Shown piece after piece: positions 584 to 5,416 of a DNA stretch of 64,000 nt. The notes below the pieces were generated by a model that made no database searches, was not told the origin of the DNA, and saw nothing but the letters and a program-made list of their open reading frames with translations. This DNA comes from an uncultured Thermoplasmata archaeon. Lineage in GTDB: Archaea; Thermoplasmatota; Thermoplasmata; RBG-16-68-12. The stretch lies in NCBI GenBank assembly GCA_963768855.1, contig CAVYJM010000011.1:352001-416000 (forward strand), in the 5' to 3' direction. Position numbers and translations under genes: made by a program. How positions within the stretch are numbered: position 1 is the first letter of the stretch; every line of letters starts with the position of its first letter.

Positions 584-1519
584 ATGGAGGACGGTGCGCG
601 GCTCATTCTCCGAACAAGCGCCGGCCTCCGCGAGAAGGAGAAGGTCCTGATCCTCGTGGACCGGGACACGAGGACCCTGGGCGACGCGTTCCTCGCCGCG
701 GCCCGGAGCCTCGGGACGGACCCCGTCCTCTTCCTCATCGTCCCCCGAGAGCGCGACGGCGAGGAGCCGCCCGAGATCGCCTCGACCGCGATGGAGTCGG
801 CGGACCTCATCGTCCTGGCGACCCGCAGGTCCCTCACGCACACCCACGCGAGACGGCAGGCGAACCGCGCGGGCGCCCGCGTCATCTCGATCCCGGGCAT
901 CACGGAGGACATGCTCGCGAAGGGCGGGCTCGCCGCCGACTGGATCGAGGTCCACGAGCTCGTCCGCCGCGTCGCACGCCGCCTGCGCAACGCACGGCAG
1001 GTCCACCTGACCTCCTCGGCGGGGACGGACCTGTCCTTCTCGATCGACGGCCGGGAGTGGATCGCGGAGGACACGGGCCTCTGCTCCCGGAGGGGCGCGT
1101 TCACGACCCTCCCGGCGGGGGAGCTCTTCATCGCGCCAATCGAGTCGAGCGCGGAGGGCCGCCTCGTCGCGGACGTCTACTTCGACGAGCCCCTTATCGA
1201 GCCCGTGACCGCGACCCTGCGGGAGGGGCACGCGACCAAGATCGTCGGCGCCTCGAAGGCGGTCCACGCGATGAACCTCGGAGGCCGGGAGGGGCGCACC
1301 CTCGGCCGCTTCGGCTTCGGGCTCAACGCGAAGGCGCGTGCATCGGGTCCCCACTTCGAGGCGGAGAAGTCGCTCGGCTGCGCGAACCTGGGGTTCGGGG
1401 ACAACGTGGCGATCGGCGGGCGGCTCGCATCCAACGTGCGGGTGGAATGCATCCTCTCCGACGTGACCTTCGAGGTCGACGGCAAGCCCGTGATCGAGAA
1501 GGGCCATCTCGTCGGGTGA
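584..1519 (+). CDS. M29 (aminopeptidase T/AmpS-like) family protein with degenerate metal ligands
   Basis: LPAGELFIAP, EAEKSLGCANLGFGDNVAIGG and the N-terminal EKVLILVD pattern are typical of M29 proteins. Confidence 0.8.
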   Translation: MEDGARLILRTSAGLREKEKVLILVDRDTRTLGDAFLAAARSLGTDPVLFLIVPRERDGEEPPEIASTAMESADLIVLATRRSLTHTHARRQANRAGARVISIPGITEDMLAKGGLAADWIEVHELVRRVARRLRNARQVHLTSSAGTDLSFSIDGREWIAEDTGLCSRRGAFTTLPAGELFIAPIESSAEGRLVADVYFDEPLIEPVTATLREGHATKIVGASKAVHAMNLGGREGRTLGRFGFGLNAKARASGPHFEAEKSLGCANLGFGDNVAIGGRLASNVRVECILSDVTFEVDGKPVIEKGHLVG

Positions 1520-1525
1520 GCGCGG

Positions 1526-4381
1526 TCAGCGGTGGTAGAGGACCCCGTAGAAGCGGTTCTCCTTCGAGGTCTTCTCCAGGCGGCCCACGATCGCGACCTT
1601 CGTGCCGCACTTCTTGCACTTGTTGTCCTTGTCCAGGTACCAGCCCGTGATGTCGAATCCGTACCGCTTCACGGCCATGGCCCCGCATCCGGGGCAGTAC
1701 GTGTTCTCGAGGCGGTGGCCCGGGACGTTGCCGATGTACGCGTACGGGAGACCTTCCTCCTTCGCGACCGCGCAGTGCCGCTCGAGGGTCTCGACCGGCG
1801 TCCAGGGGAACTCCATCATCTTGTAGTCCGGATGGAAGCGGAGGAAGTGGATCGGCGTGTCGGGGCCGAGGTTGTCGTGGACCCAGCGGGCCAGCTTGCG
1901 GGCCGCCTCCAGGCTGTCCCCCACCTGGGGAACGATGAGGTCCGTGATCTCGATGTGGATCTTCTTCGTGTCCCGCATCTCGAGGATCGTCTGGAAGATG
2001 GGGTCCGCGTTCGGGATGTTGATGTACTTCCGGACGAACTCGGTCTCGCCGGACCCCTTGAAATCGACCGTCACGCAATCGAGGAACTTCTCCATCTCCG
2101 CCACGGTCTCGGGCGTGTCGTAGCCGTTGGACACGAAGATGTTGATGAGGCCCGCCTTCCTGGCGAGGACACCGATGTCCCGGGCGAACTCGATGAAGAT
2201 CGTGGGCTGGTTGTACGTGTACGCGAGGCCCTGACAACCCTGCTCCACGGTCATGCGGACGACGTCTTCGGGTTGGACCTCGATGCCCTCGACCTTGCGC
2301 CGCTGGGAGATGTCAGCGTTCTGGCAGTTCGCGACCGCGAGGCCGTTGGCCGTGTAGCTGTGATCTTCCTCGACCTCGATGTTGTAGACGGGACCGACGT
2401 AGGTCTCCTCTGTGATTTCGCGAATCGGAACGAGCAGATACCGTGCAGTCTTGATTGTGCGGACCTTGCTGCTCACCCACTCCACGGAATCGGGGTCCAT
2501 ACGGACTTGGTCTACGAAGAGCCGAAGCATGAAGTCGTTCGCGCGCGACACCTTCCGGCCTTCGATTTCGTACTCGGTGGGATTCTGGGCGACGTACACT
2601 CGGGGTGTCTCGCCAAGCATGACGAGCAATTGTGCGACGCCAAAGGTCAGCGCTGGAGAAGTGGACGAACTCCCGAGCACCAGGGAATCGCCTCGGCCCT
2701 TGGTTACATAACCGTCCCCGTTGAGATACCCGGAGAGGAATCCGAGGATCACAGGCGGGTCCGTGGACCGGAGGATGAATGAAGGAACCCGCTTGGTTTC
2801 GCAGGAGTCGCCGCATGTCTCTTGGACGAGTCGGGTGAAGGGTGCGTTCGGGACGATGACGGCGGCTCGATGTCCCTGGACGGAGACGCGCGTCGGGAGC
2901 CCGAGAGTCGTCTCGATCAGCCGACGGACCTCCGCAATCCGGTCCGTTTCCTGGAGCCCCAAGCTGAACCAGACTGAGCCGCTATTGGGCCGCTTTCGAT
3001 GCCACGACACCGACCCCTCTGCGCAGTAGTAGCCAAGAAGCCTCGCGAATTCCGGGGTCACACGAATGCGGGCCGGGATTCCAGGTCCCTTCTCGGCAGA
3101 CCAACGGATCCGTCCAGACTGCGTCTTGAGGCTGTACCTGTGCTTGTATTTCGGGGAGCTCGCGGCTCGAACGAACGCATCCATGTCGAGCGGAGGGTTG
3201 GCCTCAGGGAAGGGGCGTGGTATCGCCAGGAAGTCTCCAATCTTGAGATCCCGGGCACGGAGCTTCCGTACCGGCCCACCTGCGACCGAAGCGAAGACCG
3301 GGTGGTCCGGCGTGCAGCGGAAGCCGGGCAGGTAGAACGGTCTGATTGTCAGGAGAGGGCCCTCGTACAAGTGTCGGAATGCCTGCCGGACCTGCTTCCA
3401 CCGACCCCGATGTGTCAGGACCTCGTGGTCGCCGACATCCCGGACATCCATGTTCCTCGTTGCCGTTCCGCTCTCGAATAGCGACTCGATCGGGAGGTGT
3501 CCGTTTTCAGTCAGCACGAGCGTCCCAGGTGCAAAACAGTATCGACAGTTGTGAACGACCGTCCCATCGGCTACATAGTTGTGGAAGGGAACGCATTCGA
3601 AGCTGAAAACCGGTTCGCTGGAGTCCTCTTCGGTGATCGTCCGTACTCGTTTCCACCCAAGCTCCGGCACGGGGGCGTGAAGTGAGTCCAGCGTCGTGAA
3701 GAACGCAGACATCTCCCTCGGGTGTGCCACGACTCCATGTGCTGGAAGGTCATGCGGGCATTCCAAGCTTCGGGGTTCCGGCGCAAAGCCCTGTGAGGCG
3801 AGTACGTCATCCCCGGGAGAGAGCGAAGAGACCCTCGTCCAGCCTTTCGTTGAGAGAACGGGATGCTCGGCGGTAGCGAGTAGCGGCTTGTGCGGACCCC
3901 AGAAGCGGACGCGGAAGGAGGGGGCGCGACGGAACCCTCGTGCAGACACGATGGAGGGCAGGGGGTTCGTGGGCCCGGAGAGTGACCAGAGCACATCCCC
4001 CTCGGACACGTCCTCCACGGGCTTCGTGGACCCGTCCGCCAGAAGGACTTGAGTGCCCGCAGGGTGGCAGAGCCAGTTGCACCCCGTCGTCGCGATGCTG
4101 AAGATCTTCGACCCCGGTCGATAGTGCTGGACCGGCTTCTTCTCGATCGGATCGACATGGCCGGTGATCACGCGCCCGTACACGTAGAGCCACAGTTTCC
4201 CCTGGTGGACCCCTCGGATCCCACAGAGGCCGACCTGGCCCTCGCCGATCTTGCAGTACCGCGCGCAGGCGGTGCACATGATCTTGTTCGTTCCCTCGAC
4301 GGGCTTCCACAGCTCCGCCACCTTGCCCACCGCCTGTCCGGGCGGCTGGCGCACGTCGAGGACATCCTCGGGAGGAATCAT
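1526..4381 (-). CDS. amrS: AmmeMemoRadiSam system radical SAM enzyme (PFL-activase-like) precursor with two inteins; 373 aa after splicing
   Basis: N-terminal CxxCxxxC and DPIEKKP; spliced motif ATTGCNWL-CRY-CQNADISQ; YTYNQP, SNGY, LLRFHP-like HFLRFHPDY, YIGNVPG, CPGC. Confidence 0.93.
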   Translation of the reverse strand: MIPPEDVLDVRQPPGQAVGKVAELWKPVEGTNKIMCTACARYCKIGEGQVGLCGIRGVHQGKLWLYVYGRVITGHVDPIEKKPVQHYRPGSKIFSIATTGCNWLCHPAGTQVLLADGSTKPVEDVSEGDVLWSLSGPTNPLPSIVSARGFRRAPSFRVRFWGPHKPLLATAEHPVLSTKGWTRVSSLSPGDDVLASQGFAPEPRSLECPHDLPAHGVVAHPREMSAFFTTLDSLHAPVPELGWKRVRTITEEDSSEPVFSFECVPFHNYVADGTVVHNCRYCFAPGTLVLTENGHLPIESLFESGTATRNMDVRDVGDHEVLTHRGRWKQVRQAFRHLYEGPLLTIRPFYLPGFRCTPDHPVFASVAGGPVRKLRARDLKIGDFLAIPRPFPEANPPLDMDAFVRAASSPKYKHRYSLKTQSGRIRWSAEKGPGIPARIRVTPEFARLLGYYCAEGSVSWHRKRPNSGSVWFSLGLQETDRIAEVRRLIETTLGLPTRVSVQGHRAAVIVPNAPFTRLVQETCGDSCETKRVPSFILRSTDPPVILGFLSGYLNGDGYVTKGRGDSLVLGSSSTSPALTFGVAQLLVMLGETPRVYVAQNPTEYEIEGRKVSRANDFMLRLFVDQVRMDPDSVEWVSSKVRTIKTARYLLVPIREITEETYVGPVYNIEVEEDHSYTANGLAVANCQNADISQRRKVEGIEVQPEDVVRMTVEQGCQGLAYTYNQPTIFIEFARDIGVLARKAGLINIFVSNGYDTPETVAEMEKFLDCVTVDFKGSGETEFVRKYINIPNADPIFQTILEMRDTKKIHIEITDLIVPQVGDSLEAARKLARWVHDNLGPDTPIHFLRFHPDYKMMEFPWTPVETLERHCAVAKEEGLPYAYIGNVPGHRLENTYCPGCGAMAVKRYGFDITGWYLDKDNKCKKCGTKVAIVGRLEKTSKENRFYGVLYHR
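2327..3538 (-). mobile_element. Intein 2 (404 aa) with LAGLIDADG homing endonuclease
   Basis: Starts CFAPGTLVLTENG; block B CTPDHP; LAGLIDADG motifs LLGYYCAEG and FLSGYLNGDG; ends HSYTANGLAVAN followed by Cys+1. Confidence 0.92.
3548..4069 (-). mobile_element. Intein 1, mini-intein (174 aa) without endonuclease
   Basis: Starts CHPAGTQVLLADG; block B ATAEHP; ends VFSFECVPFHNYVADGTVVHN followed by Cys+1. Confidence 0.92.
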
Positions 4382-4429
4382 GCTCCCTCCAGATTAGGCC
4401 AGAGCGACCATAAACATGTTTCGAGGAGA

Positions 4430-5416
4430 CTACCCCGAATGTGAAACTCGGAAGTGCTCCCATCCGCGGCCCGCGAGCGGCTCCGGTTTCCCCAAAACTA
4501 CCAGGACGTTGGGTCCGGGCTTGCCCACCTTCCCGATGACCGTGAGCGCGTGATGGGTCCCGCGGTGCGGCTCGTTGAGCCGCGCCGCCAGATCCGCGAC
4601 GGCCTCCGGCTTGACCGTGGCCACGAGCTCGAAATCCCCGCCGGAGTAGAGCGCGTACTCCCGCTGACGTTCGAGCGGGGCGGATTCGAGCGGTTTGTAG
4701 AGCGGGACCTTCTCCCACTCGACGGCGTAGGACAGTCCGCTCATCGCCGCCATCTGCGCGAGGCTCAGCCCGAGGCCATCCGAGATGTCCATGCAGCTCG
4801 TCACGACCCCGGAATCGGAGAAGATCTGTCCCTCCGCCACGCGCGGGTACGGATGGAGGAGCTGCTCGAGGCCCTCCGCGCGAGTCGTGGGTGCGGCGAT
4901 CTGCTCGTACGCCAGCCCCGCGCGCCCGAGGTCGCCCGTGACGACGATCGCGTCCCCCGGGCGGGCTCCCTTCCGGAGCAGGATTCGCTCCTTCCGCACG
5001 CGGCCGATCGCGGTGCCCGCGAGGGACATCACGTCGGCCTCCTTCGTGTCCCCCCCGAGCACGGCGACCCCGAACTCGCGCGTGCAGGCCTCCATGCCCT
5101 GCGCGAGCCCCTTGAGGAAGTCGACCTCCGTGGTCGGCGGGAGGGACAAGGCCGCCACGAACCCGAGCGGGCGCGCGCCCGCCGCGGCGATGTCGCTCAA
5201 GTTCACAGCGACGAAGTACCAGCCGACCGCCTCGGGCCGCGAGCCTTCCGGGATATGGGTCCGCGGGTTCACGACGTCCGTCGTGATGACGAGGTAGTCC
5301 TCGCCCCACTCCGCGACGCCGCAGTCGTGCCCCAGGCCGATGGGCTGCCCGCGGTCGAAGATGCGGGTCAGGAGCCGGATCGCCTCGCGCTCGCCGATGT
5401 CGGAGAGCTTCGCCAT
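4430..5416 (-). CDS. thiL: Thiamine-monophosphate kinase
   Basis: GEREAI, GHDCG, VNLSDIAAAG, GGDT, MDISDGL, GGDFELV motifs. Confidence 0.93.
   Translation of the reverse strand: MAKLSDIGEREAIRLLTRIFDRGQPIGLGHDCGVAEWGEDYLVITTDVVNPRTHIPEGSRPEAVGWYFVAVNLSDIAAAGARPLGFVAALSLPPTTEVDFLKGLAQGMEACTREFGVAVLGGDTKEADVMSLAGTAIGRVRKERILLRKGARPGDAIVVTGDLGRAGLAYEQIAAPTTRAEGLEQLLHPYPRVAEGQIFSDSGVVTSCMDISDGLGLSLAQMAAMSGLSYAVEWEKVPLYKPLESAPLERQREYALYSGGDFELVATVKPEAVADLAARLNEPHRGTHHALTVIGKVGKPGPNVLVVLGKPEPLAGRGWEHFRVSHSG

What the first reader, a model, noticed from the sequence alone, without database searches (positions are those of the whole stretch)
2324..4081. Two inteins three residues apart inside the radical SAM CxxxCxxC motif
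Seen: C-N-W-L-[174-aa intein]-C-R-Y-[404-aa intein]-C-Q-N. The second and third [4Fe-4S] ligand cysteines each serve as the +1 nucleophile, so no cluster can form until both splice. Known: single inteins occur in radical SAM motifs (P. abyssi MoaA). A double occupation of one 8-residue motif is unusual.
Basis: partly seen in the sequence, partly recalled or inferred. Interest (0 to 1): 0.75.

Follow-up and report, generated by a model that had tools for sequence, protein, structure and literature searches.

The report
Two inteins splitting one iron-sulfur motif
The only AmmeMemoRadiSam radical SAM enzyme gene of a soil Thermoplasmata archaeon carries two unrelated self-splicing inteins just three codons apart inside its iron-sulfur motif, and relatives carry every empty, single and double version, which makes it a natural system for studying how neighbouring inteins splice and spread.

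Summary
Confirmed. ORF 1526-4381 (-) encodes a 951-aa AmrS precursor reading GCNWL-[174-aa mini-intein a]-CRY-[404-aa LAGLIDADG intein b]-CQN. Removing both inserts restores CNWLCRYCQN, as found in intein-free relatives.

- **Real and maintained.** It is the genome's only AmrS copy. The splicing residues of both inteins are invariant in 23 distinct double alleles. Exteins, inteins and the endonuclease domain are all under purifying selection.
- **Two separate invasions.** The inteins resemble each other only at the generic HINT level.
- **Common in nature.** In the 79 genomes held for the order I verified 49 alleles: empty 12, a-only 13, b-only 7, double 17. Public proteins add doubles with two endonucleases, so all nine states occur.
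- **Mobile.** Near-identical exteins carry inteins about 50% different. In one genome pair the a-CRY-b cassette is half as diverged as its exteins, which points to transfer as one unit.
- **Site b is a known hot spot** (Tes model; P. abyssi MoaA by inference).

This scan had already found single inteins in this motif on other genomes, and the double only on this stretch. I found no paper describing co-occupied sites this close. Splicing order, redox gating and hitchhiking remain inferred. Verdict: a new variant of a known kind.

The parts
1526..4381 (-). amrS precursor ORF (951 aa plus stop; 106.1 kDa). It is the only TIGR04337 match in the genome.
4070..4381 (-). N-extein, aa 1-104, ending G-C101-N-W-L (motif Cys1)
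   Evidence: TIGR04337 model positions 4-84
3548..4069 (-). Intein a, a 174-aa mini-intein without an endonuclease: Cys1 (C105), block B TAEH (T170, H173), end VVHN278. Inserted before motif Cys2.
3539..3547 (-). Three-residue micro-extein C279-R-Y. C279 is the +1 nucleophile of intein a, motif Cys2, and position -3 of intein b.
2327..3538 (-). Intein b, 404 aa: Cys1 (C282), block B TPDH (T357, H360), end AVAN685 (penultimate Ala, not His). Inserted before motif Cys3.
2474..3178 (-). LAGLIDADG homing endonuclease domain inside intein b (about b residues 121-355). Motif 1 GYYCAEG is at 3014-3034 and motif 2 GYLNGDG at 2711-2731.
1526..2326 (-). C-extein, aa 686-951 plus stop, starting C686-Q-N (motif Cys3, +1 nucleophile of intein b); radical SAM core

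Best explanation
The gene encodes a working AmmeMemoRadiSam radical SAM enzyme that is made as a 106-kDa precursor. Two independent, unrelated inteins interrupt it. Intein a sits directly before the second cysteine of the [4Fe-4S] motif CxxxCxxC, and intein b directly before the third. Each intein removes itself by standard class-1 protein splicing: an N-S acyl shift at its own Cys1, transesterification to the +1 Cys, Asn cyclisation, then an S-N shift. The +1 nucleophiles are the cluster ligands themselves, so the motif CNWLCRYCQN, and hence the enzyme, exists only after both splicing reactions (inferred). Either order of splicing gives an intermediate with the same layout as single-intein alleles that occur naturally, so no fixed order is needed (inferred). 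At the DNA level, intein b carries an intact LAGLIDADG homing endonuclease and is the mobile partner. Intein a is a derivative, without an endonuclease, of a 353-aa intein that carries a DUF559/EDxHD-type endonuclease. It persists by descent. Because it lies only 9 bp from b's insertion site, it probably also persists by being copied together with b during homing, so a-CRY-b moves as one cassette (partly shown).
For: **Both inserts are inteins at these exact sites.** Domain and family hits are. The motif is restored in empty orthologues. Nearest solved relatives are PI-PkoII for b (E 6e-17) and DnaB mini-inteins for a (E 4e-5).

**The gene is functional.**
- It is the only AmrS copy in the genome, and the partner genes AMMECR1 and Memo are present.
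- C105, T170, H173, H277, N278, C279, C282, T357, H360, N685 and C686 are invariant in 23 distinct double alleles.
- dN/dS is 0.01-0.15 for exteins of same-genus pairs, 0.14-0.37 for inteins and 0.07-0.16 for the endonuclease domain. Both LAGLIDADG motifs are kept in 13 of 13 large b inteins.

**The two invasions were independent.** The best a-versus-b match is generic HINT similarity only (E 2e-7).

**Allele series.** All occupancy states are found in the order (verified). Doubles with two endonucleases exist in public data.

**Mobility.**
- Exteins 0-2% different carry inteins 47-57% different.
- Intein dS is often 2-4 times extein dS.
- In G019 versus G074 third-codon-position differences are 68/578 in the two inteins (a 10.9%, b 12.2%) against 81/366 in the exteins, Fisher p 3e-5.
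- The a and b distances correlate after removing extein distance (partial Mantel r 0.49, p 0.0004, 16 doubles).
Against: - No splicing product has been observed; everything rests on sequence conservation.
- Intein b lacks the canonical penultimate His (AVAN). This is a trait of most site-b inteins in this family, not a local lesion.
- The AlphaFold model folds both inteins, but the CRY linker and the exteins have low confidence (pTM 0.48). It therefore says nothing about steric compatibility or splicing order.
- Cassette transfer rests on one clear genome pair plus a Mantel correlation across related sequences. G071 looks recombinant between a and b.
- The share of doubles (17 of 46 alleles in intein-bearing families) is close to what independent occupancy would give. 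Linkage is therefore not obligatory.
- The genome is a MAG with 7.7% contamination.
Confidence: 0.85

Rival explanations
1. The pair is more than selfish DNA. It acts as a redox-gated or assembly-gated checkpoint. Disulfides C101-C105 (CxxxC) and C279-C282 (CxxC, the Cys-3/Cys1 geometry of the P. abyssi MoaA redox trap) would block both splicing reactions in oxidising conditions. The oxygen-labile enzyme would then be completed only when the cell is reduced.
For: The geometry is present in the sequence. The MoaA precedent is described in PMC3922620 and PMC10663303. The residues involved are invariant in 23 alleles, but they are also required simply for splicing and for cluster binding.
Against: Closely related species do without either or both inteins, so no regulatory role is required. 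The cysteines are explained by the motif itself. No experiment supports gating here.
Confidence: 0.2
2. The gene is a decaying pseudogene: one or both inteins no longer splice and AmrS function has been lost in this lineage.
For: Intein b lacks the penultimate His. Intein a has lost its endonuclease and evolves fast, with only 60% identity to its closest relative.
Against: The 951-codon frame is open. Extein dN/dS is 0.03-0.15 for this allele against its same-genus relatives and intein dN/dS 0.14-0.37 overall. All splicing residues are invariant in 23 alleles. It is the only AmrS copy, while AMMECR1 and Memo are retained.
Confidence: 0.04
3. The whole a-CRY-b block is excised as one composite intein. 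The N-extein thioester would be attacked by C686, and the CRY tripeptide would be lost.
For: It is chemically conceivable, because the block starts with Cys1 and ends with Asn followed by Cys.
Against: The product CNWL-CQN would lack the second cluster ligand. Each intein has its own complete set of blocks A, B, F and G and occurs alone in relatives. CRY (or CKY, CQY) is conserved between the two inteins in all doubles.
Confidence: 0.02
4. The double insertion is an assembly chimera of two single-intein alleles from a mixed population.
For: The genome is a MAG, and alleles of this gene are highly polymorphic in related populations.
Against: The same layout occurs on contigs up to 160 kb in 17 other assemblies and in 22 independent public protein clusters. 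The window is continuous sequence inside a contig that extends at least 350 kb upstream of it (window placed at 352001-416000).
Confidence: 0.01

Closest known systems
Pyrococcus abyssi MoaA intein (Callahan et al. 2011, as summarised in PMC3922620 and PMC10663303)
   Same: It is an intein in a radical SAM enzyme with an extein Cys at -3 of the intein's Cys1. That is the geometry of intein b here (C279-R-Y-C282). By inference this is the same position, before the third motif cysteine.
   Different: It is a single intein in a different radical SAM family. I inferred its insertion position from the published Cys-3/Cys1 description and did not check it on sequence. Redox control is shown for MoaA and untested here.
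NCBIfam NF045703 'tetraether lipid synthase Tes, intein-containing'
   Same: Intein b matches the model's intein part (positions 360-611; 78 bits, 66 bits). In this genome's intein-free Tes, the model's C-terminal part begins exactly at the third Cys of CNLKCPIC. The Tes intein is therefore a homologue of intein b at the same motif position in another radical SAM family.
   Different: Single intein in a different host enzyme. The own-genome Tes has no intein.
[quoted passage not shown] 2023, PMC10643990)
   Same: Two inteins sit in one conserved gene, with polymorphic single and double alleles. The same question arises of whether neighbours help or hinder each other's homing.
   Different: That paper describes the MCM sites only as 'within close proximity', both inteins carry endonucleases, and co-homing into empty alleles was inefficient. 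Here the sites are 9 bp apart. In most doubles only b has an endonuclease, and one genome pair points to joint transfer.
DnaB intein sites a and c (Novikova et al. 2016, PMC4760082)
   Same: These are alternative intein insertion points only two residues apart in one conserved motif.
   Different: That paper reports simultaneous occupancy for sites b and a, not for a and c. Here both adjacent sites are occupied in the same protein.
PI-PkoII (PDB 2cw7) and DnaB mini-inteins (PDB 4o1r, 1mi8)
   Same: These are the nearest solved relatives by sequence. PI-PkoII aligns with both LAGLIDADG motifs and the HINT blocks of b, and the DnaB mini-inteins align with blocks A, B, F and G of a.
   Different: They have different host proteins and identity is low. 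Intein b ends in Ala-Asn rather than His-Asn.
Other published multi-intein hosts: T. kodakarensis DNA polymerase (85 residues apart) and P. abyssi CDC21 (48 residues apart), both cited in PMC8966425
   Same: Two inteins in one host protein, and both are mini-inteins in CDC21.
   Different: The spacing is 48-85 residues, against 3 here.

Membership tests
Class-1 intein (intein a) | N-terminal Cys/Ser, block B Thr-x-x-His, C-terminal His-Asn, +1 Cys/Ser/Thr | tested here: met
   C105, T170-A-E-H173, H277-N278 and C279 are all invariant in 23 alleles.
Class-1 intein (intein b) | N-terminal Cys/Ser, block B Thr-x-x-His, C-terminal Asn, +1 Cys/Ser/Thr | tested here: met
   C282, T357-P-D-H360, N685 and C686 are invariant. 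TIGR01445 scores 33.9 bits (cut-off 24.5) and TIGR01443 scores 43.3 bits (cut-off 15.6).
Class-1 intein (intein b) | Penultimate His before the terminal Asn | tested here: not met
   The end is A-V-A-N. Most site-b inteins of AmrS end in A/S/G/C-N, and a few end in H-N. This residue is common but not universal among inteins (my own knowledge).
Intein (both) | In-frame insertion in a conserved host motif, with intein-free alleles that restore the motif exactly | tested here: met
   Empty alleles read CNWLCRYCQN or CNWLCKYCQN in the same genus.
Intein (both) | Protein splicing demonstrated | not testable with these tools
   The support is indirect only: purifying selection on exteins and inteins and a sole gene copy.
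LAGLIDADG homing endonuclease (in intein b) | Two LAGLIDADG motifs with the catalytic acidic residues | tested here: met
   GYYCAEG and GYLNGDG are present. Pfam LAGLIDADG_3 scores 39.5 bits (cut-off 22.5). The motifs align to those of PI-PkoII and are kept in 13 of 13 large b inteins.
LAGLIDADG homing endonuclease (in intein b) | Site-specific cleavage of the empty allele | not testable with these tools
   Activity is inferred from dN/dS of 0.07-0.16 on the domain and from the evidence of transfer.
AmmeMemoRadiSam system radical SAM enzyme (TIGR04337) | Score over the curated cut-off | tested here: met
   291.6 bits against a cut-off of 220, in two stretches that flank the inteins.
AmmeMemoRadiSam system radical SAM enzyme (TIGR04337) | CxxxCxxC cluster motif | tested here: met
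   The motif is present only after conceptual removal of both inteins.
AmmeMemoRadiSam system radical SAM enzyme (TIGR04337) | Partner genes AMMECR1 and Memo in the genome | tested here: met
   One copy of each is on contig C6, not linked to amrS.
Redox-trap intein (P. abyssi MoaA type) | Extein Cys at -3 of the intein's Cys1 | tested here: met
   C279-R-Y-C282.
Redox-trap intein (P. abyssi MoaA type) | A disulfide that blocks splicing under oxidising conditions | not testable with these tools
   Known only from the literature on MoaA.

The most novel reading that the evidence does not exclude
Because the two insertion sites are only 9 bp apart, a-CRY-b behaves as one compound mobile element. 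Intein a, which has no endonuclease, is carried into empty alleles by unavoidable co-conversion whenever b's endonuclease cuts. This would be a natural case of a mini-intein homing with a neighbour's endonuclease, which Turgeman-Grott et al. 2023 name as an open question. The enzyme's Fe-S site is then assembled only after two coupled, possibly redox-gated, splicing events.
Probability: 0.4. Interest if true: 0.72.

Novelty: new variant of a known kind. Interest (0 to 1): 0.6.

Why it matters
This is the tightest natural packing of two inteins that I could find documented: a three-residue extein whose first residue is at once a splicing nucleophile, position -3 of the next intein, and an iron-sulfur ligand. 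It raises concrete questions that experiments can answer.

- Can two HINT domains fold and react when joined by three residues?
- Is there a splicing order or cross-talk between the two reactions?
- Does each endonuclease still recognise a target whose far half is replaced by the neighbouring intein?

Nature has also supplied all nine allele states: empty, mini or endonuclease-bearing at each of the two sites, within closely related genomes. That gives a ready comparative system for the intein homing cycle of gain, endonuclease loss and intein loss. It also bears on the question Turgeman-Grott et al. (PMC10643990) leave open, namely whether a mini-intein can spread using its neighbour's endonuclease.

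On the practical side, these proteins are annotated in public databases as 'pyruvate formate lyase activating enzyme' or 'DUF559 domain-containing protein', with no mention of inteins. Two natural inteins that work side by side might also be useful as an orthogonal pair for protein engineering.

Tried and rejected
1. **Is intein b a shifted duplicate of intein a?** Rejected. There is only generic HINT similarity, and the nearest solved relatives differ.
2. **Do two endonuclease-bearing inteins never coexist?** None appeared among the 49 verified genome alleles. The idea is rejected, because P0237 and P0238 (1119 and 1128 aa) carry both DUF559 and LAGLIDADG domains.
3. **Does occupancy of one site favour or exclude the other?** In intein-bearing families the counts are both 17, a only 13, b only 7, neither 9. 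This is close to independence. The genomes are related, so I make no statistical claim.
4. **Is intein a found in other host proteins?** All 37 hits were AmrS. The search is limited by its word index.
5. **AlphaFold2 of the whole precursor** with 23 double alleles. The inteins fold, but the CRY linker and exteins have low confidence (pTM 0.48), so it cannot inform steric fit or splicing order. I did not take it on to a fold search.
6. **Is the genome's third intein also in a radical SAM motif?** No. It is in a class II ribonucleotide reductase.
7. **Do empty alleles carry obvious resistance changes at the target site?** There are only scattered synonymous or conservative differences, so nothing decisive.
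8. **Position of the Rv2578c-family intein model.** Coordinate arithmetic suggests site b, but the alignment is ambiguous by one residue.
9. **Literature.** Searches for intein with CxxxCxxC and radical SAM, and for intein with AmmeMemoRadiSam, gave zero papers. Intein(s) with 'radical SAM' gave nothing relevant. A search on phrases for adjacent, tandem or neighbouring inteins gave only the papers cited here.
Full report
**1. The observation**

The window holds one open frame, 1526-4381 on the minus strand, of 951 aa. Reading from the N-terminus it runs as follows:
- the N-extein ends G-C101-N-W-L104;
- a 174-aa insert starts CHPAGT and ends VVHN278;
- three residues follow, C279-R-Y281;
- a 404-aa insert starts CFAPGT and ends AVAN685;
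- the C-extein starts C686-Q-N.

Taking out both inserts leaves a 373-aa protein with CNWLCRYCQN.

NCBIfam identifies the exteins as the AmmeMemoRadiSam radical SAM enzyme (TIGR04337, 291.6 bits, cut-off 220). Pfam and NCBIfam intein, Hint and LAGLIDADG models hit the inserts.

**2. Are both inserts inteins, and is the gene alive?**

Each insert has its own Cys1, block B TxxH (TAEH and TPDH), a terminal Asn and a +1 Cys. In an alignment of 23 distinct double-intein proteins from public data, these eleven residues are all invariant: C105, T170, H173, H277, N278, C279, C282, T357, H360, N685 and C686.
- Intein b is related to PI-PkoII (PDB 2cw7, E 6e-17), and both LAGLIDADG motifs align.
- Intein a resembles DnaB mini-inteins (E 4e-5).
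- The two inteins share only generic HINT similarity (best E 2e-7), so they are separate invasions and not a duplication.

The genome is a 2.87-Mb MAG, 93.6% complete with 7.7% contamination.
- It has no second AmrS.
- It keeps single AMMECR1 and Memo genes elsewhere.

All parts of the gene are under purifying selection.
- dN/dS is 0.01-0.15 for exteins in same-genus pairs and 0.14-0.37 for the inteins.
- It is 0.07-0.16 for the endonuclease domain of b, whose catalytic motifs are kept in 13 of 13 large b inteins.

I conclude that both inteins splice and that b's endonuclease is probably active. This is inferred from conservation, not observed.

**3. The allele series**

I searched the 79 genomes held for the order with TIGR04337 and read the loci. 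In the table, 0 means empty, a or b a mini-intein, and A or B an intein with an endonuclease.

| State | Count |
|---|---|
| 00 | 12 |
| a0 | 5 |
| A0 | 8 |
| 0b | 4 |
| 0B | 3 |
| ab | 6 |
| aB | 10 |
| Ab | 1 |

- The aB alleles include this window.
- The large site-a intein (353 aa) carries a DUF559/MTES_1575 nuclease. According to PMC9403480, this belongs to the EDxHD homing-endonuclease family.
- The mini forms align to the two ends of the large forms and lack the middle.

Public protein collections extend the series.
-, dissected, gave 16 aB, 6 ab and 14 A0 clusters.
-, dissected, gave 92 more A0 clusters, some named from Nitrososphaerota.
- At least two true AB proteins exist, P0237 and P0238, with both nuclease types.

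All nine states therefore exist. On the extein tree the states are scattered among near-identical sequences, as the intein homing cycle predicts.

**4. Mobility, and whether the two travel together**

Alleles whose exteins differ by 0-2% (G007, G017, G019, G073) carry a and b inteins that differ by 47-57%. Intein dS is commonly two to four times extein dS. Old intein lineages therefore sit in young extein backgrounds, which implies horizontal exchange.

The reverse pattern appears in G019 versus G074. Differences at third codon positions are 10.9% in a and 12.2% in b, but 22% in both exteins (68/578 against 81/366, Fisher p 3e-5). This points to a recent transfer of the whole a-CRY-b block.

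Across 16 doubles, the a and b distances stay correlated after extein distance is removed (partial Mantel r 0.49, p 0.0004). This test is known to be liberal for related sequences. G071 looks recombinant: its a resembles the G007 type and its b the G019 type.

Mechanistically, a break made by b's endonuclease in an empty allele leaves only 9 bp of homology before the donor's intein a. Repair should therefore copy both inteins. That step is inference.

Overall occupancy of the two sites is close to independent (17 both, 13 a only, 7 b only, 9 neither in intein-bearing families). Linkage is therefore frequent but not obligatory.

**5. How it compares with what is known**

Inteins in radical SAM cluster motifs are known.
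- The P. abyssi MoaA intein has a native Cys-3/Cys1 disulfide (PMC3922620, PMC10663303).
- NCBIfam has models for intein-containing Tes and Rv2578c-family proteins.
- Novikova et al. list 48 inteins in SplB-type (COG1533) proteins of Actinobacteria.
- I showed that the Tes-model intein is a homologue of intein b, inserted at the same place before the third cysteine.
- Earlier agents of this scan found single site-b inteins in AmrS, PflX and PflA-like genes of several other genomes and judged them ordinary.

Genes with two inteins are also known. Published spacings include 85 and 48 residues (PMC8966425). DnaB has alternative sites two residues apart, but co-occupancy is reported only for other site pairs (PMC4760082). 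The Haloferax MCM study found that two endonuclease-bearing neighbours hinder co-homing. It asks explicitly how often an intein without an endonuclease homes with a neighbour's help (PMC10643990).

I found no paper that describes two occupied sites three residues apart, or a double intein in a radical SAM motif. The searchable library lacks most subscription journals, so this absence is not proof.

**6. What stays open**

Splicing itself, its order, any redox gating and the endonuclease's target tolerance are all untested. AlphaFold2 folds both inteins (pLDDT about 60-86 for a and 66-95 for b). The CRY linker and the exteins come out below confidence (pTM 0.48), so the model cannot show whether two HINT domains three residues apart fit together.

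One logical point helps. Whichever intein leaves first, the intermediate has the layout of a natural single-intein allele of the same intein family. Only the first reaction therefore takes place in a truly new context.

**7. Verdict**

This is a new variant of a known kind: an extreme and recurrent case of neighbouring inteins, with a complete natural allele series and some evidence that the pair moves as one unit. Interest is moderate to high for intein biology (0.6).

Noticed in passing
L053:969-4576 (own genome, contig C10:42468-46075; outside the window): The genome's only other intein sits in a class II (B12-dependent) ribonucleotide reductase, before the catalytic Cys of TNP|CGEQPL. It carries LAGLIDADG_3 (61.6 bits) and ends ...VVRQ before the +1 Cys, so it has a terminal Gln rather than Asn. 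About 40 codons downstream of the intein the reductase reading frame changes (ORF 969-3233, then ORF 3050-4576). This could be a frameshift or an assembly error.
   Followed up: partly
L020 (G013), L013 (G001), P0174, P0238; not in the window: The 353-aa form of the site-a intein carries a DUF559 / REase_MTES_1575 (Vsr-like, EDxHD-type) nuclease instead of LAGLIDADG. At least 106 distinct public clusters have it at this site, including proteins named from Nitrososphaerota (for example Candidatus Nitrosotalea sp. TS). Several are annotated only as 'DUF559 domain-containing protein'.
   Followed up: partly
P0152-P0293 (public homologues): Intein-bearing AmrS proteins are labelled 'pyruvate formate lyase activating enzyme' by JGI. 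Some NCBI gene calls start inside the intein (P0201 has 615 aa for a 726-aa-type gene). The inteins are not mentioned in any source name shown.
   Followed up: no
window 2327-2341 and homologues: Most site-b inteins of AmrS end in Ala/Ser/Gly/Cys-Asn. A minority (P0056, P0077, P0099) end in His-Asn, so loss of the penultimate His is a trait of the lineage.
   Followed up: partly
window 584-1519 (+) and 4430-5416 (-): The genes flanking amrS are a Peptidase_M29 aminopeptidase and an AIR-synthase-related (ThiL/HypE-like) protein. The AMMECR1 and Memo partner genes are not adjacent; they lie on another contig.
   Followed up: yes
G028:C130:585-1413 (relative, not fetched): In one relative the empty amrS matches the family model in two abutting frames (model positions 5-35 and 84-330). 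This may be a disrupted or frameshifted copy, alongside a second partial copy on another contig.
   Followed up: no
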